A stretch of 61,898 nucleotides of DNA, filler included, from Deltaproteobacteria bacterium (lineage in GTDB: Bacteria > JACQOV01), in the NCBI GenBank assembly GCA_016202395.1. It is 5 parts of 5 records of this genome, joined end to end, with 100 filler letters (N's around TTAATTAATTAA, not from the genome) between each part and the next. Parts side by side here need not be neighbours in the genome. Positions count along the whole stretch, not along the records: positions 4,616 to 27,468 come from JACQOV010000089.1; 4 more parts are not named here. One strand, written 5' to 3'. Under the pieces are notes generated by a model. It did no database searches. It saw nothing but the letters and a program-made list of their open reading frames with translations, and was not told the origin of the DNA. This document shows, in pieces, positions 4,516 to 58,236 of the stretch. Both the position numbers and the translations under genes were made by a program. The first letter of the stretch is position 1. Every line of letters starts with the position of its first letter.

Positions 4516-4615
4516 NNNNNNNNNNNNNNNNNNNNNNNNNNNNNNNNNNNNNNNNNNNNTTAATTAATTAANNNNNNNNNNNNNNNNNNNNNNNNNNNNN
4601 NNNNNNNNNNNNNNN
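4516..4615. other. Artificial contig spacer
   Basis: N44-TTAATTAATTAA-N44 (stops in all six frames). Confidence 0.99.
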
Positions 4616-4620
4616 AGCTA

Positions 4621-4775
4621 CCTGTCCCCAGGTGGGTCGTATTTGCTAGAGCGACCCCTGTGGGGACAGTTAGCAAAGCCAAACTGTCCCCATGGGTCAA
4701 AAATCTTGTGAGTGAAGCGAGAAAAAACATTCCCACGAACTTTTCCCACCGACCATTCAAAAATCTTGTGAATGA
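4621..4775. repeat. CTGTCCCC-type hairpin cluster followed by 'B' end module of the MITE-like family
   Basis: CTGTCCCCA / TGGGGACAG / CTGTCCCCA alternating inverted repeats; GGGTCAAAAATCTTGTGAGTGAAGCGAGAAAAAACATTCCC nearly identical to 53092-53132. Confidence 0.7.
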
Positions 4776-8281: not shown

Positions 8282-9985
8282 CTACAAAAGATCCCCATTT
8301 GGGAAACCCGGAGTGGCTCGCTGACGAACAAAATCTGCTGCCTCACTATCGGTATCCACCCCATCGATCCTCCGCGCAATCGCTTCATCTTCAACGCTAG
8401 AGGCATCCCCATCCTGAGGGAGTCCCCCCTCGACTCCAACCCGAACCGTATCCACCAATTCCCCAAGATTGTTTCTCAATTCAATCGTAATCTTATTCAG
8501 ATTGTCCCCGGTAGGATTCCCAATAACGAGATAGCTCTGAGATTCAAAGTGAGCGATCGACGAGCCTACGCCACTAAACCGCTCCGTTCCACTCCCTTCG
8601 CCCAAGATATCCACTTCATCCGTTCCATCCAGCATATGAATCGACCAACCGGTGAGATCCACAGGCTCTAGACTTGCGTTGAAAAGCTCAATCCATTCGT
8701 CCGACCCTGTGATGGAACCGGTGCCAGGGGTGTTGTTGAAACTCACACCATCCCCTCCGGAGCTATCACCCCAATCTTGTTGGGGATCGACCACCATTTC
8801 ATTGATGACAACATAGCCCGCAAGCTCCGGCTGCGGCTCCAATTCAGGCTCTGACTCTGGCTCGGGCTCTGGCTCAGAATCGGGGTTCCCTTCACCACAC
8901 GGCTCGGCACAGGCATCCTCTTCACTGTCTATTTCCTGCTCATCGCTTGTTTCCTCCCCATCTGGAGAGGATTCCTCGATATCGGACGCTTCGGGCTCCG
9001 CCTCACCCTCCTCAACGCCTGGATCCTCGCCGGCCTCCCCTGTTTCATCTGTTTCTTTCTCCTGGCCACATAACTCTACACAAGAACCCGCTGGATGGAC
9101 CGTCGTAAAGTGAAATCCCAGCTCCCCTGTGGGAGGAGCTCCCCCCTCCGTCATCGATTGGCCATACCGATCTACAATCCCTGAAGGGATCCCTATCGTG
9201 TATTCCATCCCCATCGCAAGGGGCTGCAAAGGGACCAGCGTCAGAAGGCTTGAGGAACGGGAGAGCCGCGAGCTAAACCGGATGGGCCCGCTAGAATCCA
9301 TCCACTCGATAGCCTGTAACCCTTCAGAATTTGGATCCAGAGACTTCGAAAACTGGACAGAGACGACCGCGCTTGTCTCAACTCCGATGGAGCCTTCCGG
9401 AGGGGTCACCGACACAATCTCGATAGGATCGGATGCGAATGTCGATCCGGTTGTAAATTGAAAAACGAGATCCTCGTCCCCCATCCGATTTCCGCTCAAA
9501 TCTCTAATCTCCGAATCTATCTCTATGGTATAGATCGTCTCAGGTTCCCACTGAAAGTAAGGTTGGAAACGAATCTCTGTAAAATCTTCGCCCGAGGTCC
9601 AACTCCCTTCAACCGATTCATCTGCCACCCACACATGAATCGTCGGATAAGAGAGGGATAGAGGATCCATCGGCTCTGAAAAAGCGATTTCAAGAGGGGC
9701 ATCCAGAACGACCCGTTCCGCTTCATCCGTTGGAGAGATAGAAACCACCAGAGGCGCCTGGTTATCGACGGTAGGACTTGGAGATTTTTCAAAATAGTCG
9801 AGCTGGGGCTCGCAACCTAAAATTCCAACTAGTACAAACGCAATAAATGCTGTTATACTTCGTTGCCCTCCTCGGCCACTCGTTGCGGCGTACGCTACAA
9901 AGTACGCCTCACTCGGGCCTCGGAGGGCGCCTCGTCTAACAGACATTTCTTGCGTTTGTAGAGATGTCACTTCCACAGACTTCAC
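8282..9985 (-). CDS. Lipoprotein with two bacterial Ig-like (Big_5) domains, acidic linker and lamin-tail-like domain
   Basis: Lipobox ILGC; 'P.VVSISP...IAFSEPMDP.S' twice; VVINEM...DEWIELFN...VDLTGW...ATPGFPN; GTG start overlapping upstream TGA. Confidence 0.8.
   Translation of the reverse strand: MKSVEVTSLQTQEMSVRRGALRGPSEAYFVAYAATSGRGGQRSITAFIAFVLVGILGCEPQLDYFEKSPSPTVDNQAPLVVSISPTDEAERVVLDAPLEIAFSEPMDPLSLSYPTIHVWVADESVEGSWTSGEDFTEIRFQPYFQWEPETIYTIEIDSEIRDLSGNRMGDEDLVFQFTTGSTFASDPIEIVSVTPPEGSIGVETSAVVSVQFSKSLDPNSEGLQAIEWMDSSGPIRFSSRLSRSSSLLTLVPLQPLAMGMEYTIGIPSGIVDRYGQSMTEGGAPPTGELGFHFTTVHPAGSCVELCGQEKETDETGEAGEDPGVEEGEAEPEASDIEESSPDGEETSDEQEIDSEEDACAEPCGEGNPDSEPEPEPESEPELEPQPELAGYVVINEMVVDPQQDWGDSSGGDGVSFNNTPGTGSITGSDEWIELFNASLEPVDLTGWSIHMLDGTDEVDILGEGSGTERFSGVGSSIAHFESQSYLVIGNPTGDNLNKITIELRNNLGELVDTVRVGVEGGLPQDGDASSVEDEAIARRIDGVDTDSEAADFVRQRATPGFPNGDLL
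9829..9972. mobile_element. 144-bp palindromic MITE-like repeat inside the lipoprotein 5' coding region
   Basis: Reverse complement differs from 39132-39274 by 4 substitutions and 1 indel; sub-terminal IR TACAAACGCAA(T/G)AAATG; central GCGTAC..GTACGC hairpin; CTAG end. Confidence 0.9.
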
Positions 9986-15630: not shown

Positions 15631-15713
15631 AGTGTATCATTCTCCACAAAAAATTTAAAGATGATCCTTAATTCCTGTTGCAGCTTTATGCCATCATTCC
15701 ATTACAACTAGCT

Positions 15714-15800
15714 CGTCATCCCCGCGAAAGCGGGGAACCAGAATTGGATTCCCACTTTCGTGGGAATGACATGCATTCCCGTTTGCACGGGAATAACGGC
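15714..15800. repeat. Cluster of three CGTCAT-type REP palindromes (ATTCCC-N8-GGGAAT form)
   Basis: CGTCATCCCCGCGAAAGCGGGGAACCAG; TGGATTCCCACTTTCGTGGGAATGAC; ATTCCCGTTTGCACGGGAATAACG. Confidence 0.85.
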
Positions 15801-15895
15801 CGACCCCAAGAAAGCGTTTGTTGCTTCAGCGGATTAAAAAAACTTGCGGTTTGGGGGAGAATTTGCTTTATTGAGTGGGCACAAAGGGGGGCAAA

Positions 15896-17062
15896 ATGGG
15901 CCAAAATAACGATCCGACAAAGGGTGTTTTTCTTTGTCTGTTTGTCTGTTTGTTTGTTTGTCTGTCTGTCTGGGCCGCCGGTTTAGCACAGGCTCACGGG
16001 ATTCAGTATCACCACTCCGATCATCTCGGTTCTACCGGAATTGTTACCGACAACAATAGAGAAGTGGTGGAACAAACCCTTTATTCCCCTTTTGGAGAAC
16101 TCCTCCAAGAAGTTGTCATTGCGAGGGACCCCGCCTTGGCGGGGGACCGAAGCAATCTCCCAACAAACCACCTCTTTACCTCCCAAGAGCTCGACCACGA
16201 ATCCAACCTCCACTATTACGGCGCCCGGTATGACGATTCGATCCTCTCCCGATTCTTAAGCCGCGATCCCATTTTGTCAGAACCTCCTTATGCCTATGTG
16301 CGCAACAATCCCATTCGATGGTTCGATTCGACCGGTCAGAGCCCTGAGGATCCAGTTCTAAAGCTCACGCGAGAGATTTGCCAGTTGGCAAGGAATGCTC
16401 AGGCCGGTGTCCCTGGAGCGGAGGAGCAATTGCAAGCCGCCCGCCACGCCTTGGAGCGAGCATTGGATCCACACCTGGAGATTGGTGAGGTTCCTCCCGA
16501 ACCGATGCTTGAGAGTGAGATGCCGTTCAGTGGGACGTCGTTGGATCATGCTCAATACTTGGCAGATCAGATTCACTCCATGTTGTCTCAGCCCACCATT
16601 CCAGAAGCGTTGGCAGGAATCCCAGAACGCTTGGCTGAGTTGCAAAATCTTATCTCGGATGGAGCAATCACGAACGATGGAGTGATTGAATTGATAAGGC
16701 TTAAGAATATTGCCTGGTGGTTTGTGGGGATGCCTGGAGACAGTGGGATGATCTCTGTGGATTCAATCGACCCACTCCCTGGCTTTGGTATTTCAGAGGA
16801 TCTGGCTGGCATGCCTCCGTTGACCTCGCTCGATAACGATCCGTTACTTGAACAATTACCGGGGCATGGAATGACTCCATCGATCCCCACACGAAATATC
16901 ACCCCTTCCACCCCAACGATGCCGGGAACGCTGCCCTTCCCCGTCACTGAGCTCCCCTCGTGGGGTCAACTGATTTATGCATCGGGAGTCTTACTCGCTC
17001 CCATCCTCGGCCCTGAAATCCTGCCGCAGCCATCGGCTGTCCTTGCCCCCGCTGTTCCGTAA
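15896..17062 (+). CDS. Signal-peptide mini-Rhs protein 1 (Rhs repeat-associated core + unique C-terminus)
   Basis: Hydrophobic leader ending AQA; YHHSDHLGS, YSPFGE, FTSQELD.ES.LHYYGARYDD....RFLSRDP, YAYVRNNPIRWFDSTG. Confidence 0.88.
   Translation: MGQNNDPTKGVFLCLFVCLFVCLSVWAAGLAQAHGIQYHHSDHLGSTGIVTDNNREVVEQTLYSPFGELLQEVVIARDPALAGDRSNLPTNHLFTSQELDHESNLHYYGARYDDSILSRFLSRDPILSEPPYAYVRNNPIRWFDSTGQSPEDPVLKLTREICQLARNAQAGVPGAEEQLQAARHALERALDPHLEIGEVPPEPMLESEMPFSGTSLDHAQYLADQIHSMLSQPTIPEALAGIPERLAELQNLISDGAITNDGVIELIRLKNIAWWFVGMPGDSGMISVDSIDPLPGFGISEDLAGMPPLTSLDNDPLLEQLPGHGMTPSIPTRNITPSTPTMPGTLPFPVTELPSWGQLIYASGVLLAPILGPEILPQPSAVLAPAVP
15933..15972 (+). repeat. Tetranucleotide SSR (TYTG)x10 in the signal-peptide coding region
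   Basis: tttg tctg tttg tctg tttg tttg tttg tctg tctg tctg. Confidence 0.9.
16115..16159. repeat. REP-like palindrome in frame inside the Rhs core
   Basis: GTCATTGCGAG-GGA-CCCCGCC-TT-GGCGGGG-GAC-CGAAGCAATCTC, 45 bp = 15 codons. Confidence 0.8.
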
Positions 17063-17136: not shown

Positions 17137-17238
17137 TTAATCTTTCTGAAGCATTTTGTTAATATGAGTGTACAGAAAGACTCTCTGAACAGCTTCTTGG
17201 ATGTCCAAAAGAAATTCGCGATCCCCCCTCTTAGACAT
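17137..17238 (-). pseudogene. Truncated HEPN/DUF86 (HepT-like) toxin
   Basis: ATG overlaps the MNT 3' end; MSKRGDREFLLDIQEAVQRVFLYT is a DUF86-type N-terminus; stop after 33 codons. Confidence 0.7.
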
Positions 17239-17533
17239 AAATCAGACTCCGTCGGATACTCTCTGCAATCTCCTTGATTCGAATACTTGCAACGCCTTCT
17301 GGGGTCAGAATGTCCAGTTTTTCCCCTAGTTTTTCTTCTAAATAATCTATCATTTGAAAAAACTTAAACCCGATAGGCCGATCCAATTCCACCAACAGAT
17401 CCACATCACTTCCCTCGCGAGCCGTGCCAGTGGCATAGGAACCAAAGAGGGCCAGTTTTTGCACTCCATACGCGCTTTTCAGTTGGGGCTGGATTTTTTT
17501 AAGGATCTCAAGGATTTTACTTTTTGTCAGCAT
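17231..17533 (-). CDS. Minimal nucleotidyltransferase (MNT antitoxin family)
   Basis: YGVQKLALFGSYA.G.A...SDVDLLVE; 100 aa from ATG 17533. Confidence 0.9.
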   Translation of the reverse strand: MLTKSKILEILKKIQPQLKSAYGVQKLALFGSYATGTAREGSDVDLLVELDRPIGFKFFQMIDYLEEKLGEKLDILTPEGVASIRIKEIAESIRRSLIYV

Positions 17534-17669
17534 ACTTGGGACTACTTTATCAAACGTTCTATCATGATGTAAATAGCCGTATTGATTCAGCACATCGCCT
17601 CCTATATCAACGAGATTGTGTGGACGTTGAGGATGGATCCGAAGGGATCTCTTCAGGATATCACGGCAT

Positions 17670-19637
17670 TTATTGAGCCTGCACGAGTTGAAAATCGGTG
17701 CGACGGCGTGCCACATCCACTTTTGCAACCTGCACCGTCACCGAATCCCCCAGTCGAAATGTTTTTCCTGTCCGACGCCCTTTCAAAATTTGATGTTCTT
17801 CCACAAAATAATAGCGATCATTAGGTAACGTGCTAATGTGGGCAAGCCCTTCCACAAAAAGATCGTTTAACTCCACAAAAATTCCAAAGGAGACAACCCC
17901 GCTCACATATCCGGGATAAACCTCGCCCAGTCTGTCAACCATAAATTGGACCTTTTTGAGATCGACGATCTCTCGTTCGGCCTCCACCGCAATTCGTTCG
18001 CGGCGGGAGGTGTGTTTCGCAATCTCGGGGAGCTGTTTTTTCCAATGCTCTTTCTTCTTCTCACTCATTCGTGAAGAACCAAAAACTTCGCGAAGCAAAC
18101 GATGCACAATCAGATCGGGGTAACGTCGAATGGGGGATGTAAAATGGGCATAATACTGCGCTGCCAGGCCAAAATGCCCCGAATTCTCTTCGCTATAGCG
18201 CGCCTGCTTCATGGTGCGAAGCATTAAGAGATTAACCGTTCGCTCATAGGGCTTCCCTTCCACGGATGAAACAATTTTTTGAAATAACTTGGGCTCTAAC
18301 TTTTTCGTCCTCTTCAAATCAGTTTGTATTCCAATCGCTCCTAAGAAGAGAGAGAAATTCTTGACCTTGAGCGGATCGGGCTCTTCGTGAATGCGATAGA
18401 GAAAAGGGAGACCCAATTTTGACATGTGCCAAGCCACTGTTTCATTGGCCGCCAACATGAACTCCTCGATGATCCGATGGGCCACATTGCGCTCCGCACG
18501 AATAATGTTCTCAGGCTTTCCCTCAATGTCGAGCAAAATCTCAGGCTCGGGAAGATCGAAATCGATGCTCCCCCTCTCGACCCTTCGAGCCCGAAGCCGT
18601 GTAAAGAGCCTCTCCATGAGTTCAAAATTCGGGATCAAACTAGGATAGCGGTTGCGAGTCTCTGGATCTTTATCGACTAAAATTTTGCGAACCTCGGTGT
18701 AAGTCATTCGCGCTCGGCTGTGAATGACACTCGGATAAATCTGGTAGTGGGCAACTCCTCCTCGTGCGTCAAAAAGCATCTCTGTCGTCATCGTGAGTCG
18801 ATCGACATCGGGTTTAAGGCTGCAAATCCCTGTGGAGAGCGGGGTTGGAAGCATGTGGATCGCTCGATCCGGGAAGTAGACGCTGGTGCCGCGTTGATAA
18901 GCCTCTTCGTCCAAGGCGGTTCCGGGACGGACATAGTGACTCACATCGGCAATCGAAACCCACAAACGGATGTTATCGCCAGTCTGTTGAACGGCCACCG
19001 CATCATCAAAATCACGGGCGTTCTCGCCGTCGATCGTCACAAAGGGGATCGAACGGAGATCTTTTCGCCCTTGGACCTCTGTCTCCGAAAGCGCATCTGA
19101 GATTGCCTCAGCCTCGCTTAAGGCCCTTGGAGAAAACTCCATGGGGAGGCCGTGCTCATGAGCGACCACCGCCACCTCCACATCGGGGTTATTGATATCC
19201 CCAAGGATCGAGAGAATCTCCCCCTGAGCCTCTTTTGTTCCATCGGGGTATTGAGTGATCTCAACGGTCACGATATCGCCCATTTGAGGCGAGTGGCGCT
19301 GCTCTCTTCCAAGCCAGATGGGGTCAGGGAACCGTTCATCTAAGGGGATCACAGAAGCCCGTCGGCCCTTTTGTTCGTAGCGTCCTACAATGGTTTTGTG
19401 CACTCGAGATAGGATACGAACGATCCGCCCCTCTCGCCGCCCTCCCTGGCGTGTTCGCTCAATGGTGGCTAAAACCTGATCCTCATGCCAAGCCCCTCCC
19501 AAAGCAGGGGAACGAATAAAGACATCTTCACCGTCAGGGCCTTCCGGACAAACAAAGCCGTAGCCATCGCGGTGGCGTTCCAGAACACCTGTTACTTTCT
19601 CCCCTCCAGGGGCTTTTTTAAACTGTTTTCTTGACAT
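17670..19637 (-). CDS. rnr: Ribonuclease R
   Basis: GYGFV cold-shock domain, TIDGENARDFDDA, IEEFMLAAN, HFTSPIRRYPDL, S1 domain. Confidence 0.97.
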   Translation of the reverse strand: MSRKQFKKAPGGEKVTGVLERHRDGYGFVCPEGPDGEDVFIRSPALGGAWHEDQVLATIERTRQGGRREGRIVRILSRVHKTIVGRYEQKGRRASVIPLDERFPDPIWLGREQRHSPQMGDIVTVEITQYPDGTKEAQGEILSILGDINNPDVEVAVVAHEHGLPMEFSPRALSEAEAISDALSETEVQGRKDLRSIPFVTIDGENARDFDDAVAVQQTGDNIRLWVSIADVSHYVRPGTALDEEAYQRGTSVYFPDRAIHMLPTPLSTGICSLKPDVDRLTMTTEMLFDARGGVAHYQIYPSVIHSRARMTYTEVRKILVDKDPETRNRYPSLIPNFELMERLFTRLRARRVERGSIDFDLPEPEILLDIEGKPENIIRAERNVAHRIIEEFMLAANETVAWHMSKLGLPFLYRIHEEPDPLKVKNFSLFLGAIGIQTDLKRTKKLEPKLFQKIVSSVEGKPYERTVNLLMLRTMKQARYSEENSGHFGLAAQYYAHFTSPIRRYPDLIVHRLLREVFGSSRMSEKKKEHWKKQLPEIAKHTSRRERIAVEAEREIVDLKKVQFMVDRLGEVYPGYVSGVVSFGIFVELNDLFVEGLAHISTLPNDRYYFVEEHQILKGRRTGKTFRLGDSVTVQVAKVDVARRRTDFQLVQAQ

Positions 19638-26520: not shown

Positions 26521-27468
26521 TTAGTGGGAGCCCATCCCAAAAACAAGGTATGCGACGCCGGCGCCGAGTCGGTCTGATCCAGCATCGGCAAGCGGGGCGC
26601 CGATGAGAATATCATCAACGCCATCGCCATTCACATCCCCTGCAGAAGCGAGCCCCACCCCAGCATGGTCATCATGGGCGTCATTCCCAATCAGCTTCAC
26701 ATCCGCCTGAGAAAGATCAATGACGCCTGAGGAAAACTGGGACCTTCCCCAGATGAGATAAGCCGCTCCTCCACTTCCATTGATCAAATAATTCATGGGA
26801 GCGCCTATTAGGAAATCAGAGAAACCATCCTCATTCACGTCCCCAGCCTCTGAAACGCCAACTCCTGCCCAGTCATTGGCCGATTCTCCAACAAATTTTA
26901 CCGTTGGGAAAAAGGAATCTGATAGGCTGGTGTGGATCCTTGCCTCACTTCGAGTTTTTGCGGCAATCTCCATTCCAGGGATCAGATAAGCGGCTCCAGA
27001 ATTCTCTCCGCCAGCGTTATTCCCATAAGCCCCGATGAGGATGTCGTCATACCCATCCCCATCGACATCCCCCGCAGTGGATACTCCATAAGCCAAATCG
27101 GAGGCCTGCTCTCCATTCCACCGAACAGCCGCTTGAGAAAGGGGGAAATCGTTAGTAAGATTCGTTCCTCCAAAAATGAGATAGACAAGCCCCCTTTGAG
27201 ATTCGTTGATCTCATCTCTCATGCCGGCAGCCCCAATCAAGAGGTCACTAAAACCATCGCCATTCACATCCCCTGCCTGGCTCACAGACACACCGACTAA
27301 ATCCTGGGAGCTCTCGGCCGAAAATTTCACGTCGGCCTCTTGGGTAGTATAAAAATTGGAATTCAAAGGCCCCCAGAAAAGATAGGCAGCCCCTGAAAGA
27401 TCTCCCACGGTATCTTCTAAAGGGCTTCCGATAAGCACATCGTGATAACCATCCCCATTCACATCCCC
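26521..27468 (-). CDS. FG-GAP (integrin alpha-like beta-propeller) repeat protein, 5' end in gap
   Basis: Five GDV(N/D)xDGxxDxLIGA...G.AYL repeats. Confidence 0.9.
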   Translation of the reverse strand, partial: GDVNGDGYHDVLIGSPLEDTVGDLSGAAYLFWGPLNSNFYTTQEADVKFSAESSQDLVGVSVSQAGDVNGDGFSDLLIGAAGMRDEINESQRGLVYLIFGGTNLTNDFPLSQAAVRWNGEQASDLAYGVSTAGDVDGDGYDDILIGAYGNNAGGENSGAAYLIPGMEIAAKTRSEARIHTSLSDSFFPTVKFVGESANDWAGVGVSEAGDVNEDGFSDFLIGAPMNYLINGSGGAAYLIWGRSQFSSGVIDLSQADVKLIGNDAHDDHAGVGLASAGDVNGDGVDDILIGAPLADAGSDRLGAGVAYLVFGMGSH

Positions 27469-27568
27469 NNNNNNNNNNNNNNNNNNNNNNNNNNNNNNNN
27501 NNNNNNNNNNNNTTAATTAATTAANNNNNNNNNNNNNNNNNNNNNNNNNNNNNNNNNNNNNNNNNNNN
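27469..27568. other. Artificial contig spacer
   Basis: N44-TTAATTAATTAA-N44. Confidence 0.99.
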
Positions 27569-27593
27569 GTCAAGGCATTATAACTATCTGTTC

Positions 27594-31259: not shown

Positions 31260-31359
31260 NNNNNNNNNNNNNNNNNNNNNNNNNNNNNNNNNNNNNNNNN
31301 NNNTTAATTAATTAANNNNNNNNNNNNNNNNNNNNNNNNNNNNNNNNNNNNNNNNNNNN
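31260..31359. other. Artificial contig spacer
   Basis: N44-TTAATTAATTAA-N44. Confidence 0.99.
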
Positions 31360-32358
31360 CCTCAGAACACGTTACATGTTGTTCCCGCAACATCTATGAG
31401 TCGAGGAGGTATTCGATTAGAGTATGAGGGTTCAGGTAGACCTTGGGACATCAACACGGGGAGTAGCTCGAGCGCTTTGTATGGGAAGCTTGGGTTTGAC
31501 TATGGTGGGGATACGAGGATGGTGTTAACGAATGACGGTCGAGTAGGAATTGGTTCTGTGGCCGATCCTGGGAACGCACTGCATGTGGTTCCTGGACCGA
31601 ATGAAGGGAGTCGAGGAGGGATTCGTTTGGAGTATGAGGGTTCAGGTAGACCTTGGGACATCAACACGGGGAGTAGCTCGAGCGCTTTGTATGGGAAGCT
31701 GGGGTTTGACTATGGTGGGGATACAAGAATGATATTAACAAGTACAGGGAACTTAGGCATTGGTAATCCAACCGGTGATCCAGAAAATCTTTTACACGTG
31801 AAAGGAACTCGAGCAGGAAATCGGGCTGGAATTCGGATTGAGTATAGCGGAGGGAGCGGCCCTTGGGATCTCAACACGGGGGATAGTTCGAGCGCTTTAT
31901 ATGGGAATCTGGGGTTTGACTATGGTGGCGATTCGAAGATGGTGTTAACAAGTACGGGAAATTTAGGCGTTGGAACGCCAGATCCAACTGAAAGACTGGT
32001 TGTTGCGGGCAATGTTCAAGCGGACAGCTATCTTTGCAACAGCTCGCGGGAGTTGAAGAAGGATGTTGCGAGTCTCACAGAAAAGGATTATTCGAAAGTT
32101 CTCGAAACCATCAACCAACTCGAAGTCGTTCGTTATCGTTACAAAGAAGACTCCGCCGAAGACAAACTCCACATCGGCTTGATCGCCGAGGATTCTCCCA
32201 AAGACATCCTTTCCCAAGACGGCAAATCCGTGAGCCTCTACGATTCCGTTGGCTATCTCCTCGCCAGCACCAAAGCTTTGATCCAACAAAACGAAGGGCT
32301 CGCAAAAGAGCTGACGGCATTGAAGGGAGAAATCCAAGCCATCAGAGCTTCCAGATAA
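31360..32358 (+). CDS. Fibre-like repeat protein with C-terminal intramolecular chaperone (Peptidase S74) domain, 5' end in gap
   Basis: G(N/R)VGIG...P...LHV repeats at 70-aa period; SSRELKKDV...L..I..L....YRYK...HIGLIAED.P; terminal coiled coil; frame open to the gap. Confidence 0.88.
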   Translation, partial: PQNTLHVVPATSMSRGGIRLEYEGSGRPWDINTGSSSSALYGKLGFDYGGDTRMVLTNDGRVGIGSVADPGNALHVVPGPNEGSRGGIRLEYEGSGRPWDINTGSSSSALYGKLGFDYGGDTRMILTSTGNLGIGNPTGDPENLLHVKGTRAGNRAGIRIEYSGGSGPWDLNTGDSSSALYGNLGFDYGGDSKMVLTSTGNLGVGTPDPTERLVVAGNVQADSYLCNSSRELKKDVASLTEKDYSKVLETINQLEVVRYRYKEDSAEDKLHIGLIAEDSPKDILSQDGKSVSLYDSVGYLLASTKALIQQNEGLAKELTALKGEIQAIRASR

Positions 32359-34754: not shown

Positions 34755-34910
34755 GAGGTTGTTGAAAAATCCATGTTTTGGCAGGCTGTTCAAAAAGCTC
34801 CAGCTGCGAGGCGGCCGACCGAGGCCGAGTGAGGCGTACTTGGTTAGTACGCCGCAACGAGTGCCGAGGGAGGCCAACGAAGCAGATGGACTTTTTCAAC
34901 AGCCTGTTAG
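34751..34910. mobile_element. MITE-like repeat with CAGGCTGTT(G/C)AAAAAG inverted repeats
   Basis: IR 34782-97 / 34891-906; extra outer AGGTTGTTGAAAAA; TTAG at both ends; core GAGTGAGGCGTAC-N7-GTACGCCGCAACGAGTG shared with the 9829/39132 family. Confidence 0.85.
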
Positions 34911-37712: not shown

Positions 37713-37769
37713 GTCATTCCCGTGCAAACGGGAATCCAGAACGTCATTCCCCTGAAAAGGGGGATCCAG
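37713..37769. repeat. Two tandem GTCATTCCC-type REPs upstream of GIY-YIG gene
   Basis: GTCATTCCCGTGCAAACGGGAATCCAG and CGTCATTCCCCTGAAAAGGGGGATCCAG. Confidence 0.88.
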
Positions 37770-38102: not shown

Positions 38103-38180
38103 CTGGATCCCCGCTTTCGCGGGGATGACGGTGGACGCAGGAATGACGATGAACGTGGGGATGACAATGAACGCGGAATG
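38103..38180. repeat. Inverted REP copy plus degenerate 18-bp tandem repeats
   Basis: CTGGATCCCCGCTTTCGCGGGGATGACG; units start at 38118, 38136, 38154, 38172. Confidence 0.8.
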
Positions 38181-39131: not shown

Positions 39132-39274
39132 AAGTGACATCTCTACAAACGCAAGAAATGTCTGTTAGACAAGGCGCCCGACGAGGCCCGAGTGAGGCGT
39201 ACTTTGTAGGTACGCCGCAACGAGTGGCCGAGGAGGGCAACGCAGTATAACAGCATTTATTGCGTTTGTACTAG
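39132..39274. mobile_element. 143-bp intergenic copy of the 9829-9972 repeat
   Basis: Near-identical; its CTAG end provides the TAG stop of the upstream oxidoreductase gene. Confidence 0.9.
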
Positions 39275-40926
39275 ATGGTTTTTTCGGGATTGAGTAATCG
39301 ATCTGGATCAAGTTGAGACTTAATCTGTCGAAGGACCTGAATACCAAGCTCTGTTTTCTCCTGTTTCATCCAAGGGCGATGATCGTACCCCACGCCATGA
39401 TGATGACTCACCGTTCCGCCGTTCTCCATGATCGTGTCGGTCGCGAGTTTTTTGATCTCATCCCATTGCCGGAGCTCTTCATTTTTTCTTTGCACCGCGA
39501 TGAGCGTAAAATAGAGAGAGGCTCCATCGGCGTAAGCGTGCGAGAGATGGCAACCGACGGTCACTTTTTCTCCGGTCTTCTTTTCTCTCTCTTGAAAACC
39601 GGCTCCCATCCGCCCATGCAATCGCTCCAGCCCTGACCACAACGCGGCGGTCTCTAGGGTGTCGATAAAGAAGGAGTGATCCATAAAATCGTCGCGCAAA
39701 TAAGGGAGGGCAAAGCGATTTTGAAGCCATTTCATCCCAATCTTTTCACTGAGCCCCTTGGAAAGAACGGCCGCTCCATTTTTCTGAAGCGATTCTCGAA
39801 TGAGGGACTCCTGTCGAAGCGACTCCTCCCGGTTTCCCTCTGTGGTCAGGAGAAGAAGGGACGGGGCGCTCCCCGCTTTTTTCACCCGGAGCCAGAGAGA
39901 GAAGGCCGCCTCTTTCCAGCCTGACATCGGTTGCATCTTCCGGAAAAGGGCGGTTTCCGTGGGGTCAGAAAGGCGAAGGATGCTGGGGTGAAGTCCAGCC
40001 TGGATCATTTTTCGAACGGCATGGACTCCGACTCCGAAATCGTTGAAGAAGGCCCCCACGAATCGCTGAGTTTGTGGAAGAGGAGCGATCTTTACCGTGA
40101 TCTCCGTAAGGATGCCGTAGATCCCCTCGGATCCGACCCAGATCTCTTTCAAAGAAGGGCCTGCGGCCGAGGCTGGCACGGCCCGTGTTTCCATGGCGCC
40201 GCGAGGGGTTTGGGCCTTGAGCGAGACCACGAGTTTGTCGATTCGGCCGTATTTTGTGGAGTTTTGGCCTGCAGAGCGTGTGGCCACCCAACCTCCCAAG
40301 GTCGAAAATTCAAACGATTGAGGAAAATGGCCCAACGTGTACCCTCTTTCGTGGAGCGCGGCTTCCAGTTCGGGGCCAAGGATTCCGGGTTGAAATGTGG
40401 CTGTCCGAGAGATTTCGTCTAACGAGAGGAGCTTATTGAGTTTTCGTAAGCTAATGACAAGGATCGGTTTGTCAGAGGGTCCCACACATTCCGTCCCCCC
40501 CACCACCCCACTTCCTCCCCCAAAAGGGATCAAGGTAATCCCAAAGAGAGAAGCGTCTTCAAAGAGAAATTGGAGGTCCCGTTCGTCCTGGAGGAATAGA
40601 ACTCCATCGGGATAGCGATCGATTTTGCCCGCTCGAATCCGGACAAGATCCCGATAGCTTTTTCCAACAGTGTGGATAACACGCTGCGCTTTGTCCACGG
40701 AGAGCCCTTTATTGGACCAGCGATCGATAAAATCTCTTTGGAGCTTGGATTCTGGAACGGCGTGTTGCCCGATGTCGATGGCTGTGGTTTTTGTGGGGAG
40801 ATCCGAAAGGCGAAATTCTTGAACCAGGGCCTTTAGCGCATGCTCTGTTGTGGCTCGATCGTAAACGATATCTTCATAGCCCCAACCCCAATACCGCGCT
40901 TTTCGTGAGTTTCCAGTCGATGACAC
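39271..40926 (-). CDS. FAD-binding oxidoreductase, alkyldihydroxyacetonephosphate synthase-like
   Basis: WGWG, PFGGGS.VVGG, GHFPQSFEFSTLGGWVATRSAG, GSEG..G, SHHHGVG, LDP...LNP. Confidence 0.92.
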   Translation of the reverse strand: MSSTGNSRKARYWGWGYEDIVYDRATTEHALKALVQEFRLSDLPTKTTAIDIGQHAVPESKLQRDFIDRWSNKGLSVDKAQRVIHTVGKSYRDLVRIRAGKIDRYPDGVLFLQDERDLQFLFEDASLFGITLIPFGGGSGVVGGTECVGPSDKPILVISLRKLNKLLSLDEISRTATFQPGILGPELEAALHERGYTLGHFPQSFEFSTLGGWVATRSAGQNSTKYGRIDKLVVSLKAQTPRGAMETRAVPASAAGPSLKEIWVGSEGIYGILTEITVKIAPLPQTQRFVGAFFNDFGVGVHAVRKMIQAGLHPSILRLSDPTETALFRKMQPMSGWKEAAFSLWLRVKKAGSAPSLLLLTTEGNREESLRQESLIRESLQKNGAAVLSKGLSEKIGMKWLQNRFALPYLRDDFMDHSFFIDTLETAALWSGLERLHGRMGAGFQEREKKTGEKVTVGCHLSHAYADGASLYFTLIAVQRKNEELRQWDEIKKLATDTIMENGGTVSHHHGVGYDHRPWMKQEKTELGIQVLRQIKSQLDPDRLLNPEKTI

Positions 40927-52884: not shown

Positions 52885-52984
52885 NNNNNNNNNNNNNNNN
52901 NNNNNNNNNNNNNNNNNNNNNNNNNNNNTTAATTAATTAANNNNNNNNNNNNNNNNNNNNNNNNNNNNNNNNNNNNNNNNNNNN
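52885..52984. other. Artificial contig spacer
   Basis: N44-TTAATTAATTAA-N44. Confidence 0.99.
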
Positions 52985-53146
52985 GCTGCTTTGCGAAGCC
53001 TACAGTGGCCAGCCCGCATTGCTGCGCAAAGCGCTGCTGGCGGGCTAGGCGAGAAATGCTAGCGAGTTCAGAGACCTACCTCCCTTGAGAGGGGTCAAAA
53101 ATCTTGCGAGTGAAGCGAGAAAAAACATTCCCGTGAACTTTTGCAC
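52985..53146. repeat. Partial MITE-like element ending in the 'B' module
   Basis: Hairpins (AGCCCGC...GCGGGCT) then GGGTCAAAAATCTTGCGAGTGAAGCGAGAAAAAACATTCCCGTGAACTTTT. Confidence 0.7.
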
Positions 53147-54479: not shown

Positions 54480-54884
54480 ATGAAGCTCCTCCTCGATACC
54501 AACGTCTTAATTGCAGCCGTCATTACAAGAGGATTCTGCGCTGAACTCTTTGAGCACTGTGTGCGCTCCCACACATTGATTACGTCGAAATTTATCATTA
54601 AAGAATTCCACGAAAAGATGATCTCCAAATTTTACTTCTCTAAAAAGGAAGCCAAAGAAGTAGAAAATTTGATTTTTTCCAGGATGGAGATTGTGAAACC
54701 GCTCCCCGTAGAACCCTCGGAATGTCCAGATCCTAACGACACAGAAGTCTTGGGAACAGCTCTCGAAGGGGAATGCCAATTTCTCATTACGGGAGACAAA
54801 GCCCTCATAAAATTAGGCCATTTCGAAGGGGTTGAAATCCTATCCCCCAGCCAGTTCTGGAGAAGAGAATCCTTTTCTCAATAA
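54480..54884 (+). CDS. PIN-domain toxin
   Basis: LLDTNVLIAA, DP.D..VL..A, LITGDK.L. Confidence 0.92.
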   Translation: MKLLLDTNVLIAAVITRGFCAELFEHCVRSHTLITSKFIIKEFHEKMISKFYFSKKEAKEVENLIFSRMEIVKPLPVEPSECPDPNDTEVLGTALEGECQFLITGDKALIKLGHFEGVEILSPSQFWRRESFSQ

Positions 54885-54959: not shown

Positions 54960-55158
54960 CTAAACCCAGTAGATTTTGATGAGGTTGGCCACCTTCTTAA
55001 AATCAGGATCGCCCGTCACAAGAATAGCGCTGTGATTTAGAGTGGTTACCAAAGCAAAGGCATCTCCAAATGAAATAGGGTATTCCCCCTTAAGTTCTGC
55101 AGCTTGATAAACGATCGAACTTGAGGAGGGCGTGGCTATCAAAAACGTGCACTGTCAT
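54960..55158 (-). pseudogene. VapC/PIN toxin with internal deletion and frameshift
   Basis: ATG 55158 gives MTVHVFDSHALLKF; another frame continues directly as YQAAELK..YPISFGDAFA.....LVTGDPDF; the middle of the domain is missing. Confidence 0.78.
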
Positions 55159-55163
55159 GGAGA

Positions 55164-55573: not shown

Positions 55574-55604
55574 CGAAGACCCTAAATAATTATAGATTTG
55601 GGAT

Positions 55605-56847: not shown

Positions 56848-56960
56848 GGTTTAGCGGCCGAAGTTTTTTGTTATTTTCACGAAATCTTGAAATCCAGCCA
56901 TTGACAACGGGGGTTTGATTTGCAACGGTTGGCTTCAAAGTAAGCAAGGGGGGGCATCAC

Positions 56961-58172
56961 ATGGGTAGTCGTTTTTGGGGTAACAGTCTGTTTTTTCTCT
57001 GTCTGTCTGCGATAGCTGGGACCGCATACGCTGAGGATAGCCCCATTCAATACTTTCATTCCGATCACCTCGGCTCTGCGAGCCTTGTTACCAATCGAAA
57101 CGCCCGCGTCGTGGAATCCATTGCTTACACCCCTTTTGGCGAAATCTTAACCCCTCACCCCTTCGACTCTGCTCAGGGCATGCCTTCTCCCTCTCCCCAG
57201 AGGGGAGAGGAAAGAGGTGAGGGGGCGACTCCTTACCTTTTCACCGGCCAAGAGGTCGACCGCGAATCCGATCTCTACAACTACGGCGCCCGTTTCTACG
57301 ACCCTGCTCTCGCTCGATTTACCAGCGTCGATCCTATCCTTTCGGAGCCGCCTTACGCCTACGTTTGGAATAACCCAATCGGTCTGACCGACCCTACAGG
57401 ACGAGCCAGCGAAGGCTCTGTTCAGGCCTTGATGCGACAGATACCTTTCCTCGCAAGGCAGGCGAAAGCGGGTGTAGAGGGAGCTCAAGAACAGCTCGAA
57501 GCGGCAAGGGAAGAACTTACAAACAGGATTAACCACCCCCCTCGTGAAATGAGGAACACATCACCTGGTGAATCAATAATTCCTCCAAACGACCCATTTT
57601 CAAGCCTCGCACCCAGAGAGAGAGCAATAATGGAACGGCAAAGAGAGATGCTTAACGAGTATCGGAGAGAGTTCGGGAGAGAGCTTCGGGTAGGTGATCT
57701 CACAGCCCACATGCAGGAAGCAAGCTCGAGCGAGGATCCGGACCTTGTTCCCTGGCTTTTTGAGGTGCGGTTTATCGTGTACTATTTTGGGGATCTGCAC
57801 GGTTTGCGAAATCACGGAGGGATTATTGATGAATTCAACATCGTAGAACTCGATGACGGGCCGATGGTGTTTCCGGCAATACCGGGGGCCTCGGCGCCAA
57901 CGATTATGGGCGGGAACATCTCTACTTTCGGTGTTCGCTATCTGATTTACCAAACCCTAGCAGTAGTGAATCTGCCATGGGATATCGGACGCGAAACCCT
58001 TTCCACTTCGTACACCCCGACTTATACCTTTCCTGGCAGCCTCCCTCCCGTTAACGGTGAGATGTTAATCAAGTTCCTGCGAGACTACATCAATCGGCTC
58101 AACTCACCCGCGCCAACCTCCTCTACCGCGCAGGGGGCTCCTCCCCCCTTACCTGTGTATGCACTGCCTTAA
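56961..58172 (+). CDS. Signal-peptide mini-Rhs protein 2
   Basis: Leader ending AYA; YFHSDHLGS, YTPFGE, FTGQEVDRESDLYNYGARFYDP...RFTSVDP, YAYVWNNPIGLTDPTG. Confidence 0.9.
   Translation: MGSRFWGNSLFFLCLSAIAGTAYAEDSPIQYFHSDHLGSASLVTNRNARVVESIAYTPFGEILTPHPFDSAQGMPSPSPQRGEERGEGATPYLFTGQEVDRESDLYNYGARFYDPALARFTSVDPILSEPPYAYVWNNPIGLTDPTGRASEGSVQALMRQIPFLARQAKAGVEGAQEQLEAAREELTNRINHPPREMRNTSPGESIIPPNDPFSSLAPRERAIMERQREMLNEYRREFGRELRVGDLTAHMQEASSSEDPDLVPWLFEVRFIVYYFGDLHGLRNHGGIIDEFNIVELDDGPMVFPAIPGASAPTIMGGNISTFGVRYLIYQTLAVVNLPWDIGRETLSTSYTPTYTFPGSLPPVNGEMLIKFLRDYINRLNSPAPTSSTAQGAPPPLPVYALP
57151..57225. repeat. Nested REP-like palindrome in frame inside the Rhs core
   Basis: CCCCTCACC...GGTGAGGGG enclosing CCTTCGACTCTGCTCAGGG and CCTCTCCCC-AGA-GGGGAGAGG; about 25 codons. 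Confidence 0.82.
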
Positions 58173-58216: not shown

Positions 58217-58236
58217 GTTTACAACGCGGCATTCCC

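What the first reader, a model, noticed from the sequence alone, without database searches (positions are those of the whole stretch)
15896..17062. Mini-Rhs family: Sec signal fused directly to the Rhs core, no YD barrel, no immunity gene
Established: Rhs proteins normally have long YD-repeat shells, use T6SS, Tc or other delivery domains, self-cleave after DPxG and are followed by an immunity gene. Seen: two ~400-aa paralogues (here and 56961-58172) go from signal peptide straight to HSDHLGS. Both keep the two Asp motifs (RF.S.DP and D(S/P)TG), share DPILSEPPYAYV.NNP, and share a helix after the cleavage site (LAR.A.AGV.GA.EQL.AAR..L) before diverging into acidic, Pro-rich tails. They have a similar leader (CAA.GGGGGGCA..ATGGG) and lie in TA-rich patches. 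Inference: an undescribed secreted auto-processing protein family using the Rhs core as a stand-alone release protease; my best candidate for a new system here.
Basis: partly seen in the sequence, partly recalled or inferred. Interest (0 to 1): 0.78.

Follow-up and report, generated by a model that had tools for sequence, protein, structure and literature searches.

The report
Cage-less, signal-peptide Rhs-core protein family
Two small exported proteins keep only the self-cutting end piece of the large Rhs toxin cage, fused to variable tails, and belong to a sizeable unstudied family that could show whether this piece works without its cage.

Summary
ORFs 15896-17062 (388 aa) and 56961-58172 (403 aa) each run from a signal-peptide-like leader straight into the last ~110 residues of an Rhs cage. 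TIGR03696 scores 60 and 72 bits against a cut-off of 32.5. Each is followed by an unrelated ~240-aa tail. There are no YD repeats and no same-strand downstream ORF.

They are not decaying fragments. Synonymous sites are saturated (pS 0.76) while pN is 0.34. R111, D124 and D144, the Rhs aspartic-autoprotease residues, are invariant in 55 of 55 aligned relatives.

An exhaustive search shows a real family. On a core tree, 43 clusters (38 with a leader, 5 with apparently miscalled starts) form one group that holds both genes and no long Rhs. Twelve members carry accessions from what appears to be one 'Deltaproteobacteria' MAG. Tails are hypervariable, about 240 aa, mostly acidic and without known domains.

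Best reading: Sec-exported, self-cleaving polymorphic effectors, a cage-less variant of Rhs. Export, cleavage and toxicity are inferred, not shown.

Corrections:
- The genes are not in TA-rich patches.
- The shared 'leader' is a G-run ribosome-binding site.
- The two genes lie on different contigs of a draft assembly.

Five literature searches found no description of this architecture.

The parts
15886..15891 (+). G-run ribosome-binding site of gene 1, 4 nt before the ATG.
   Evidence: Sequence read. Gene 2 has the same kind of G-run.
15896..17062 (+). Gene 1: cage-less Rhs-core protein, 388 aa plus stop.
   Evidence: ORF. TIGR03696 at 60.1 bits, cut-off 32.5. Family membership.
15896..15994 (+). 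Gene 1 signal-peptide-like leader, residues 1-33, with AQA before the likely cut.
   Evidence: Hydrophobic 19-mer mean of 2.6. My own rule. AF2 helix at residues 7-30. SignalP was not run.
15929..15972 (+). Imperfect TGTY/TTTGTCTG tandem repeat that encodes the hydrophobic core of the gene 1 leader (LCLFVCLFVCLSV).
   Evidence: Tandem Repeats Finder: period 4 with 9.5-10.2 copies, period 8 with 5 copies at 90% matches.
15995..16336 (+). Gene 1 last YD-type hairpins plus the Rhs repeat-associated core, residues 34-147, ending in DSTG.
   Evidence: Aligns to the last ~110 residues of solved Rhs/Tc cages, for example 8qja 1770-1877 of 1879 and YenC2 582-692/694. TIGR03696 hit.
16130..16177 (+). 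Variable loop of the gene 1 core, carrying a repeat-element-like peptide (VIARDPALAGDRSNLP).
   Evidence: Alignment. Contains a 6-bp GC hairpin, but the overall fold z is only -1.3.
16226..16228 (+). Gene 1 codon for R111, the conserved Arg of the Rhs autoprotease site.
   Evidence: Invariant in 55 of 55. Lies 13 residues before D124, as R2103 lies before D2116 in the teneurin-like protein (PMC13018210, passages).
16265..16267 (+). Gene 1 codon for D124, the first catalytic Asp (RDPIL).
   Evidence: Invariant in 55 of 55. Corresponds to the first D of the DP(I/L)G...D(P/S)xG motif (PMC11461821, passages).
16325..16336 (+). Gene 1 DSTG: the second catalytic Asp (D144) and the presumed cleavage site.
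   Evidence: D144 and G147 are invariant in 55 of 55. D144 aligns with the Asp that is Ala in the pre-autoproteolysis RhsP entry 8h8b and Asp in the cleaved entry 8h8a.
16352..16465 (+). Gene 1 helical hairpin after the site, residues 153-190. This is the only part of the tail shared with gene 2.
   Evidence: BLASTP. AF2 helices 153-169 and 175-190, block-mean pLDDT 88-97.
16337..17059 (+). Gene 1 variable C-terminal region, residues 148-388. It has helices to ~277, a Pro-rich stretch of low model confidence at 279-345, and a hydrophobic helix at 355-371.
   Evidence: AF2. No relatives other than itself. No Pfam or NCBIfam family. Nothing in the Atlas or by fold search.
56948..56954 (+). G-run ribosome-binding site of gene 2, 6 nt before the ATG.
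   Evidence: Sequence read.
56961..58172 (+). Gene 2: cage-less Rhs-core protein, 403 aa plus stop.
   Evidence: ORF. TIGR03696 at 72.1 bits. Nearest relative P0017, 76% identical over the core.
56961..57032 (+). Gene 2 signal-peptide-like leader, residues 1-24, with AYA before the likely cut.
   Evidence: AF2 helix at residues 3-20. The leader is itself similar to those of P0014 and P0017.
57033..57401 (+). Gene 2 last YD-type hairpins plus the Rhs core, residues 25-147. R111 is at 57291-57293, D124 at 57330-57332, and D144 with DPTG at 57390-57401.
   Evidence: Invariant columns. Profile hit at E 5.4e-58.
57138..57233 (+). Gene 2 core loop with a repeat-element-like insert (coordinates approximate), peptide TPHPFDSAQGMPSPSPQRGEERGEGATP.
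   Evidence: Contains a perfect 9-bp hairpin CCTCTCCCC/GGGGAGAGG, with overall z of -1.3. Similar loops are found in 14 of 40 clade members by my pattern.
57402..58169 (+). Gene 2 variable C-terminal region, residues 148-403: a helical hairpin at 154-191, more helices to ~284, then low model confidence.
   Evidence: AF2. The only tail relative is P0017, 37% identical over 94 aa at E 3.5e-14 among 57 tails. Nothing else was found.

Best explanation
Genes 1 and 2 are members of a lineage-expanded family of small exported proteins that are Rhs proteins without the cage. Each has four parts:
- a Sec-type signal peptide;
- the last one or two YD hairpins;
- the ~80-residue Rhs repeat-associated core, with its Arg and two-Asp autoprotease site and PxxxxD(P/S)xG;
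- a hypervariable C-terminal domain of ~240 aa.

The most likely mechanism has three steps.
1. The precursor is exported by Sec and the leader is removed.
2. The core folds and cuts its own chain at or just after D(P/S)xG, as in Rhs, TcC and teneurin-like proteins.
3. The variable domain is freed, or held non-covalently, in the periplasm or outside the cell. There it acts as a polymorphic effector, probably an antagonistic one in at least part of the family.

Shown by the sequences and searches: the architecture, its recurrence, purifying selection on the N-terminal module, invariance of the catalytic residues, and hypervariability of the tails.

Inferred: export, cleavage, release, and any toxic activity. 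How the product would cross an outer membrane is unknown.
For: **Architecture.** ORFs. TIGR03696 is above its cut-off in both. Residues 35-147 align to the extreme C-terminal ~110 residues of solved Rhs, TcC and Tse15 cages.

**Catalytic site.** R111, D124, D144 and G147 are invariant in 55 of 55 aligned family members. Their spacing, R+13 to D and D+20 to D, matches the site described in the literature (PMC13018210 and PMC11461821, passages).

**Selection.** Over 177 aligned codons pS is 0.758 (saturated) and pN is 0.341.

**Family.**
- Of 159 stored hits, 51 have a signal-peptide-like leader followed directly by the core under my rule. I added 5 more by eye.
- On a tree of the 159 cores, a group of 43 (SH-like support 94) holds 38 leader-bearing members, 5 whose starts look miscalled, both window genes, and no long Rhs.
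- The leader label needs 15 changes on that tree, against 46.2 +/- 2.8 when shuffled.
- Longer cluster members restore the leader for the 2 proteins checked, P0160 and P0161.
- 12 of 20 members looked up carry accessions in the run MBI4208085-MBI4209821, all named 'Deltaproteobacteria bacterium'. The two filed as hypothetical proteins show locus tags HY538_.

**Polymorphic tails.** 57 tails fall into 48 BLASTP clusters. In the clade the median tail is 239 aa, range 122-281.

**Link to toxins.** More distant proteins with the same layout carry Ntox28 or Ntox44. Others are followed by small membrane proteins, and L067 also by an orphan tail fragment.
Against: - No signal-peptide predictor was available.
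- AF2 models the core outside a cage with only moderate confidence. Block-mean pLDDT is 53-73 for residues 90-130 and 45-48 around the cleavage site, with pTM 0.30 and 0.32. In every solved structure this segment is packed inside a cage.
- The residue after D(P/S)xG is L, W or F in only 3 of 40 clade members. It is Q in gene 1 and R in gene 2, unlike the canonical DPxG[LWF].
- Neither window gene has a candidate immunity gene.
- No member of the 43-member clade has a recognised toxin domain. The two hits to HTH families, in P0019 and P0062, point elsewhere.
- The tails of genes 1 and 2 have no relatives, families or fold matches, apart from P0017 for gene 2.
- 35 of 40 clade tails are net acidic, and many contain long Pro-rich stretches of low model confidence. 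This is not typical of enzymatic toxins.
- The tree rests on 109 columns and FastTree. The support of 94 is below the tool's star threshold.
Confidence: 0.5

Rival explanations
1. These are exported proteins that are not weapons. The variable acidic, Pro-rich tails would be surface, matrix, adhesion or signalling domains. The Rhs core would serve as a maturation autoprotease or only as a conserved folding or anchoring module. No immunity protein would then be needed.
For: - No immunity-like gene lies beside either window gene.
- L003, a distant form with the same layout, also sits among housekeeping genes with no such neighbour.
- P0024 and P0020 have adjacent accessions on a 2,957-nt contig, which leaves little room for a gene between them.
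- No toxin family is found in the 43-member clade.
- 35 of 40 tails are net acidic, and genes 1 and 2 have segments of ~70-90 residues with low model confidence.
- 12 members appear to come from one MAG, which is many for toxins that lack immunity genes.
Against: - The combination of a conserved N-terminal module with hypervariable tails of uniform length is the hallmark of polymorphic toxins.
- Proteins with the same layout elsewhere carry Ntox28 or Ntox44, or have immunity-like neighbours.
- Strict conservation of the protease residues implies that release of the tail matters.
Confidence: 0.25
2. These are halves of a split Rhs. The small protein would supply the plug, protease and cargo, and would assemble after export with a separately encoded YD shell that lacks its own core, in the way TcB and TcC together build one cage.
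For: - In all solved structures the segment homologous to residues 35-147 is buried in, and closes, a YD cage (preprint 10.1101/2024.02.26.582050, passages).
- AF2 is not confident about this segment alone.
- Tail lengths are tightly bounded at 122-281 aa with a median of 239, as if limited by a cavity.
Against: - The window holds no other Rhs- or YD-like ORF. The profile search of all six frames found the two genes at E 5e-58 and 6e-54, and the next best hit at E 5.6. No ORF in the window exceeds 655 aa.
- Both genes are flanked by divergent and convergent unrelated genes.
- Post-export encapsulation of a 240-aa domain by a pre-formed shell has no precedent that I know of (recalled, not searched).
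- Only 62 kb of a draft genome was visible, so absence of a shell elsewhere is not shown.
Confidence: 0.12
3. These are decaying orphan rhs 3' fragments, or gene-calling artefacts, that start by chance with a hydrophobic stretch.
For: - Short Rhs genes with an intact core and toxin domain but a truncated N-terminal region are common downstream of full-length rhs genes (PMC5727410, passages).
- They were abundant among the 73 fetched loci.
- Gene 1's hydrophobic leader is encoded by a simple tandem repeat.
Against: - Synonymous sites are saturated while the catalytic and structural residues are retained.
- The leader is present in 38 of the 43 clade members, and longer cluster members restore it in the 2 proteins checked.
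- The leaders are themselves similar within sub-groups.
- Both have strong G-run ribosome-binding sites.
Confidence: 0.03

Closest known systems
T6SS Rhs effectors (P. protegens RhsA 7Q97, V. parahaemolyticus RhsP 8H8A/B, A. baumannii Tse15, A. mimigardefordensis VgrG-Rhs 8QJA)
   Same: Shares the Rhs repeat-associated core with the conserved Arg, the two catalytic Asp and PxxxxD(P/S)xG, followed by a variable C-terminal domain.
   Different: - Lacks the ~700-1400-residue YD cage, the N-terminal plug or clade domain, and any PAAR or VgrG link.
- Has a Sec-type leader instead.
- The residue after the motif is Q or R, not L, W or F.
- Has no immunity gene.
- No T6SS genes are in the window.
TcC subunits of Tc toxins (TccC3, YenC2)
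   Same: Shares the homologous C-terminal core and aspartic self-cleavage site. The weak matches span window residues 35-150.
   Different: TcC contributes half of a cage built with TcB and needs TcA for delivery. Nothing of that is present here.
WapA-type Sec-dependent Rhs toxins of Gram-positive bacteria (B. subtilis; S. suis, PMC12704120, seen as search listing and abstract only)
   Same: Shares the Sec signal peptide, the Rhs core, and a polymorphic C-terminal domain.
   Different: WapA proteins keep long YD-repeat regions and wall-binding domains, and have cognate immunity genes (recalled). Here the leader is joined directly to the core.
Orphan rhs-CT cassettes (Salmonella, E. coli, S. 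alvi; PMC5727410 passages; PMC3967940 and PMC7043789 abstracts)
   Same: Both are short ORFs made of a core fragment plus a variable tail.
   Different: Orphans lie downstream of a full-length rhs gene, lack their own export signal, and are paired with immunity genes. Genes 1 and 2 stand alone, have leaders and ribosome-binding sites, and belong to a clade with no long members.
Bacterial teneurin-like proteins (PMC13018210, passages)
   Same: Shares the Rhs-type site (R2103, D2116, D2140). Some carry a Sec signal. They have a small polymorphic C-terminal domain, one of which is toxic from the periplasmic side.
   Different: They are very large proteins with a YD shell, an FN-plug and an NHL domain, and their C-terminal domain is ~15 kDa and hidden in the shell.
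MafB-type toxins of Neisseria (recalled from memory, not checked here)
   Same: Shares the overall logic: signal peptide, a small conserved N-terminal domain, and a polymorphic C-terminal domain.
   Different: The N-terminal domain is unrelated and has no known autoprotease. Immunity genes follow the toxin gene.

Membership tests
Rhs / YD-repeat cage toxins | Long array of YD repeats forming a beta-cage | tested here: not met
   No YD-repeat family is found at E <= 1. The only hit is the 38-residue PF03527 at 14 bits, below its cut-off of 27.9. Only ~30 residues lie between the leader and the core. AF2 shows three strands there.
Rhs / YD-repeat cage toxins | Rhs repeat-associated core domain (TIGR03696) | tested here: met
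   Scores are 60.1 and 72.1 bits against a cut-off of 32.5.
Rhs / YD-repeat cage toxins | Autoprotease residues: conserved Arg, two Asp about 20-24 residues apart, and PxxxxD(P/S)xG | tested here: met
   R111, D124, D144 and G147 are present in both genes and invariant in 55 of 55. The motifs are as given in PMC11461821 and PMC13018210.
Rhs / YD-repeat cage toxins | L, W or F directly after DPxG | tested here: not met
   The residue is Q in gene 1 and R in gene 2. It is L, W or F in 3 of 40 clade members. The canonical form comes from the preprint 10.1101/2024.02.26.582050.
Rhs / YD-repeat cage toxins | Actual self-cleavage at the motif | not testable with these tools
   This needs expression of wild type and Asp mutants.
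Rhs / YD-repeat cage toxins | Delivery module (PAAR, VgrG, TcB/TcA, wall anchor) | tested here: not met
   No such domain is in the proteins or among the neighbours scanned. There is only a signal-peptide-like leader.
Polymorphic toxin systems (Sec-dependent class of Zhang et al. 2012, PMC3482391) | N-terminal signal peptide | tested here: inconclusive
   The heuristic is positive: a charged n-region, a hydrophobic stretch, and AQA or AYA. SignalP or an equivalent was not available.
Polymorphic toxin systems (Sec-dependent class of Zhang et al. 2012, PMC3482391) | Conserved N-terminal part with unrelated C-terminal domains among relatives | tested here: met
   57 tails fall into 48 clusters. 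The gene 1 and gene 2 tails are unrelated.
Polymorphic toxin systems (Sec-dependent class of Zhang et al. 2012, PMC3482391) | Recognisable toxin domain at the C-terminus | tested here: not met
   Neither gene has one. Of the 55 relatives scanned, only P0101 (Ntox44) and P0152 (Ntox28) do, and both lie outside the 43-member clade.
Polymorphic toxin systems (Sec-dependent class of Zhang et al. 2012, PMC3482391) | Cognate immunity gene immediately downstream | tested here: not met
   No same-strand ORF of 50 aa or more follows either gene, and the next genes are convergent. This could not be tested for the closest relatives.
Orphan rhs-CT cassettes | Position downstream of a full-length rhs gene, with no export signal of its own | tested here: not met
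   The upstream genes are a divergent ftsE-like ABC ATPase and a divergent AAA/DUF4143 ATPase. The window holds no other Rhs-like ORF. Leaders are present.

The most novel reading that the evidence does not exclude
The Rhs core would be an autonomous, portable self-cleaving module that needs no cage. One uncultured deltaproteobacterial-type lineage would have built on it a multigene arsenal of Sec-exported effectors, with at least 12 paralogues in one MAG. These effectors have hypervariable ~240-aa domains of wholly unknown folds and are deployed without cognate immunity proteins. That would mean they aim at targets the producer lacks, such as prey, hosts or other phyla, or that they have a non-toxic signalling or adhesive role.
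Probability: 0.3. Interest if true: 0.7.

Novelty: new variant of a known kind. Interest (0 to 1): 0.55.

Why it matters
Work on Rhs, Tc and teneurin proteins treats the C-terminal core as part of the cage. It plugs the shell, and its two Asp cut the cargo inside. A monophyletic, selected family that keeps only this ~110-residue piece behind a signal peptide offers a natural test of whether the protease site is self-sufficient. If it is, it would be a very small self-cleaving release module.

The family also exposes about 40 or more unrelated domains of ~240 aa with no known family. Their uniform length and context mark them as candidate effectors.

The apparent lack of immunity genes, if it holds in complete genomes, would set the family apart from classical polymorphic toxin systems.

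If the proteins prove to be unprocessed or inert, the finding reduces to an annotation note on a sub-family of 'RHS repeat-associated core domain-containing' proteins.

Tried and rejected
**Tail function.**
- Word-indexed searches with the tails alone found only the query itself. These covered gene 1 residues 150-388 and gene 2 residues 150-403, near-length proteins only. Longer and shorter proteins were not searched for the tails.
- ESM Atlas gave no usable hit. The best feature score was 0.76 for gene 1, and TM was at most 0.29.
- Foldseek against the PDB returned only weak Rhs-core matches for both models (E 0.03-0.04) and nothing for the tails.
- A profile comparison of the gene 2 + P0017 tail against the gene 1 tail gave probability 0.1%.

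**Context of relatives.**
- It returned 73 loci that are mostly full-length Rhs genes with orphan arrays.
- Only L003, L012 and L067 show a leader followed by the core, and they are distant relatives.
- The contigs of the 12-paralogue MAG could not be fetched.

**Other checks that led nowhere.**
- In-gene hairpins in the core loops fold no better than shuffles (z -1.3; 24 and 20 of 200 shuffles fold as well).
- Promoter-like sites are not above chance: 3 against 1.3 +/- 1.2, and 2 against 1.4 +/- 1.1. No terminator-like site follows either gene.
- 'TA-rich patches' was rejected.
- The Bdellovibrio Bd0109 'RHS' protein (PMC3818213, passages) is a 550-aa YD-repeat protein and not this architecture.
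Full report
**What is there.**
Gene 1 runs 15896-17062 on the + strand and encodes 388 aa. It also has an upstream GTG at 15875, but only the ATG is preceded by a G-run (GGGGGG at 15886-15891). Gene 2 runs 56961-58172 on the + strand and encodes 403 aa, with a 7-G run at 56948-56954. The proteins are 46% identical over residues 25-219 (E 6e-49), and BLASTP finds no significant match in the rest.

Each begins with a leader that looks like a Sec signal peptide. Gene 1 has MGQNNDPTK, a 21-residue hydrophobic stretch and AQA. Gene 2 has MGSR, a hydrophobic stretch and AYA. The leader runs directly into IQY(H/F)HSDHLGS. No signal-peptide predictor was available, so this call rests on my own rule and on the AF2 N-terminal helices.

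NCBIfam TIGR03696 (Rhs repeat-associated core) matches both proteins above its cut-off, at 60.1 and 72.1 bits against 32.5. Pfam finds no YD-repeat family at E <= 1.

Against solved structures, residues 35-147 align only with the last ~110 residues of Rhs, TcC and Tse15 cages. Examples are 8qja 1770-1877 of 1879 and YenC2 582-692/694. So these proteins keep the closing piece of the cage and nothing of the cage itself.

**Corrections to the observation.**
- The genes are not in TA-rich patches. Their GC is 0.52-0.56 and the flanks are 0.45-0.50.
- The 'similar leader' on the DNA is a G-run ribosome-binding site plus ATGGG.
- The window is not one molecule. N...TTAATTAATTAA...N linkers near 4516-4615, 27468-27569, 31260-31359 and 52885-52984 join five contigs.
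- The spacings equal the contig lengths stored for the two proteins, 22,853 and 8,914 nt. The two genes therefore lie on different contigs of a draft, binned genome.
- A six-frame profile search finds only these two copies in the window, at E 5e-58 and 6e-54, with the next best hit at E 5.6.

**Not debris.**
Over 177 aligned codons, from the leader to the shared helix, the synonymous difference is pS 0.758. That is beyond the Jukes-Cantor limit, so it is saturated. The non-synonymous difference is pN 0.341. The N-terminal module has therefore been held by selection over a long divergence.

In an alignment of 55 family members the invariant columns are P65, G67, R111, F120, D124, Y134, P139, D144 and G147, in gene 1 numbering. 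Gene 2 has the same five from R111 to G147.

R111, D124 and D144 have the spacing of the Rhs aspartic-autoprotease site described in the literature. For a teneurin-like protein it is given as R2103, D2116 and D2140, with two DPxG motifs about twenty residues apart (PMC13018210, passages). For Tse15 it is D1369 and D1391 within DP(I/L)GxxGGx5Yx8D(P/S)xG(L/W) (PMC11461821, passages). D144 aligns with the position that is Asp in the cleaved RhsP entry and Ala in the pre-autoproteolysis entry.

One departure from the canonical site stands out. The residue after the motif is Q in gene 1 and R in gene 2. It is L, W or F in only 3 of 40 clade members.

**A family.**
An exhaustive phmmer search of 1.84 billion representatives gave 41,730 hits at E <= 0.001. 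This reflects the ubiquity of the Rhs core. Most of the best 150, however, are proteins of 320-420 aa in which the core starts at residue ~5-40.

I classified the 159 proteins then held, which are those 150 plus 9 others:

| Class | Number |
|---|---|
| Signal-peptide-like leader directly before the core | 51 |
| Core at the N-terminus, no leader by my rule | 38 |
| Core internal, protein of 700 aa or less | 55 |
| Protein longer than 700 aa | 15 |

I moved five further proteins to the leader class by eye (P0028, P0043, P0075, P0137, P0088).

I then built a FastTree tree of the 159 core segments, using 109 columns. One group of 43 rows has SH-like support of 94, which is below the tool's star threshold. 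It consists of 38 leader-bearing proteins and 5 that begin inside or just before the core. It contains both window genes and no long or internal-core protein. The leader label needs 15 changes on the tree, against 46.2 +/- 2.8 in 300 shuffles.

For the two proteins checked (P0004, one of the 5, and P0016), a longer member of the same 90% cluster restores a typical leader (P0161 and P0160). The other starts may be miscalled, but I did not verify this.

Of 20 members looked up, 12 carry NCBI accessions in the run MBI4208085-MBI4209821, all labelled 'Deltaproteobacteria bacterium'. The two filed as hypothetical proteins show the locus-tag prefix HY538_. I take these 12 to be one MAG with at least 12 paralogues. 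Two of them have adjacent accessions on a 2,957-nt contig. Public records name most of them 'RHS repeat-associated core domain-containing protein'.

**Tails.**
- The regions after the motif are hypervariable. 57 tails fall into 48 single-linkage BLASTP clusters at E <= 1e-3.
- The gene 1 and gene 2 tails beyond the shared helix are unrelated. Smith-Waterman z is -0.57, and the profile comparison gives probability 0.1%.
- Within the 43-member clade the motif was located in 40. There the tails have a median of 239 aa and a range of 122-281. 35 of 40 are net acidic, and 13 of 40 have a membrane-helix-like window.
- AF2 gave mean pLDDT 62.6 and 61.6, with pTM 0.30 and 0.32. In both proteins it models a leader helix, three strands, and a core of moderate confidence that is lowest around the motif. 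A confident helical hairpin follows at residues ~153-191, with block-mean pLDDT 82-98. More helices run to ~280, then a long stretch of low confidence.
- No family, relative or fold was found for either tail. The one exception is that 94 residues of the gene 2 tail are 37% identical to the tail of P0017.

**Link to polymorphic toxins.**
Pfam was run on 55 small relatives:
- P0152 carries Ntox28 (E 4e-13).
- P0101 carries Ntox44 (E 1e-7).
- P0049 carries a nucleotidyltransferase domain.
- P0019 and P0062 carry helix-turn-helix matches.
- The other 50 have nothing beyond weak Rhs matches.

On the tree, P0101, P0152 and P0049 lie outside the 43-member clade, while P0019 and P0062 lie inside it.

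Among the 73 loci fetched from reference genomes, most are full-length Rhs genes with orphan arrays. Three distant loci show a leader followed by the core:
- **L067 (a Patescibacteria MAG).** It has two copies. One carries a LysM domain after the core. It is followed by a small multi-pass membrane protein, an orphan tail fragment and a second membrane protein. This is the classic toxin/immunity array.
- **L012 (Pirellulales).** The protein is followed by a 177-aa protein with an N-terminal hydrophobic stretch.
- **L003 (a Woesearchaeota-labelled MAG).** It sits between housekeeping genes with no such neighbour.

**Surroundings of the two genes.**
Gene 1 lies between a divergent ftsE-type ABC ATPase and a convergent nucleotidyltransferase gene, with RNase R beyond it. 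Gene 2 lies between a divergent AAA/DUF4143 ATPase and a convergent gene for a small exported protein that matches no Pfam family. No T6SS, Tc, PAAR or YD-shell gene is in the window, and the largest ORF is 655 aa. Neither gene has a same-strand downstream ORF of 50 aa or more.

**Interpretation.**
The best-supported reading (0.5) is a cage-less variant of the Rhs polymorphic-effector design. Sec export would be followed by self-cleavage at D(P/S)xG by the conserved Arg and two-Asp site, and then by release of a variable domain. The anatomy, recurrence, selection and hypervariability are shown. Export, cleavage, release and activity are inferred.

The rivals are:
- an exported but non-toxic role for the tails (0.25);
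- a split Rhs that docks onto a separately encoded shell (0.12);
- decaying fragments or artefacts (0.03).

The points against the favoured reading are real:
- AF2 has low confidence in the core outside a cage.
- The residue after the motif is non-canonical.
- Neither locus has an immunity gene.
- No toxin domain is known anywhere in the 43-member clade.

**Novelty.**
Five full-text searches and the passages read returned nothing on a signal peptide fused directly to the Rhs core. The passages came from PMC3482391, PMC5727410, PMC3818213, PMC11461821, PMC13018210 and preprint 10.1101/2024.02.26.582050. The library lacks most subscription journals, and I opened no supplementary files, so a description elsewhere cannot be excluded. 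I rate this a new variant of a known kind, of moderate interest.

**Left unchecked.**
The gene neighbourhoods of the closest relatives, and the rest of this genome, remain unseen.
- The tails were searched only against near-length proteins.

Noticed in passing
window 4516-4615, 27468-27569, 31260-31359, 52885-52984: Runs of N around TTAATTAATTAA join five separate contigs, so the window is a concatenated draft assembly and not one molecule. A 51-nt repeat (94% identical) lies ~75-105 nt inside the starts of contigs 2 and 5, at 4694-4744 and 53092-53142. A shorter copy is at 56-86.
   Followed up: partly
window 15700-15810; copies at 38103-38130 and 37713-37738: The intergenic region upstream of gene 1 holds three REP-like GC hairpins and is strongly structured as single-stranded DNA (-27.3 kcal/mol, z -6.2, 0 of 200 shuffles as good). 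Two of the hairpins recur inverted on another contig, at 96% and 92% complementarity.
   Followed up: partly
window 16130-16177 and ~57138-57233; same loop in P0015, P0017, P0018, P0021, P0022, P0027, P0028, P0030, P0031, P0035, P0036, P0060 and others: The loop between PFGE and (Y)LFTGQE of the core carries peptides that look like translated palindromic repeat elements. There are three types: PSPSPQRGE(G/E)(W/R)GEG, PPL(I/K)KGG.GG and RERSDRSNLPTNH. My pattern finds them in 14 of 40 clade members. I did not resolve whether this is one inherited loop or repeated insertion of repeat elements at a tolerant site.
   Followed up: partly
window 15929-15972: The hydrophobic core of gene 1's leader is encoded by an imperfect tetranucleotide (TGTY) tandem repeat of ~10 copies. 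Slippage by a whole number of units other than a multiple of three would shift the frame. No variant copies were available to test this.
   Followed up: no
window 54132-54170 / 58193-58231 and 55484-55577 / 58241-58334: The 3' end of the methyltransferase gene (85% over 39 nt) and the 3' end of the convergent small exported-protein gene (97% over 94 nt) are each duplicated. The intact junction of the two lies just after gene 2. The PIN and MazE/PIN modules, the AAA/DUF4143 ATPase and gene 2 all lie between the copies. This looks like an insertion hot spot between two convergent genes.
   Followed up: partly
window 17231-17728 (-), 54480-54884 (+), 54960-55403 (-): Toxin-antitoxin-type genes lie near both Rhs-core genes. 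A nucleotidyltransferase (MNT-like) with no HEPN partner visible is convergent with gene 1. A PIN_3 gene and a MazE-like plus short PIN pair lie upstream of gene 2's neighbour.
   Followed up: no
window 31398-31974 and 26597-27471: Three ~210-nt direct repeats (88% and 72% identical to the first) lie at the start of ORF 31396-32358. Five ~200-nt-spaced repeats lie within ORF 26521-27462 (-). These probably encode repeated protein domains.
   Followed up: no
window 9816-9972, 34807-34882, 39132-39287: Another repeat family of 74-78 nt (81-96% identical) occurs in direct and inverted copies on two contigs, near gene ends.
   Followed up: no
L067 1438-3587 and 7387-7890: A Patescibacteria MAG has two proteins with a leader followed by the Rhs core. 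One has a LysM domain after the core. It is followed by a membrane protein, an orphan C-terminal fragment of the same tail type, and a second membrane protein. This is a compact polymorphic toxin/immunity array.
   Followed up: partly
P0019 (residues ~220-355) and P0062 (residues ~200-330): Two members of the 43-member clade have tails with several helix-turn-helix matches (HTH_1 at E 6e-7 and 2e-6, plus others). This is odd for an exported domain.
   Followed up: no
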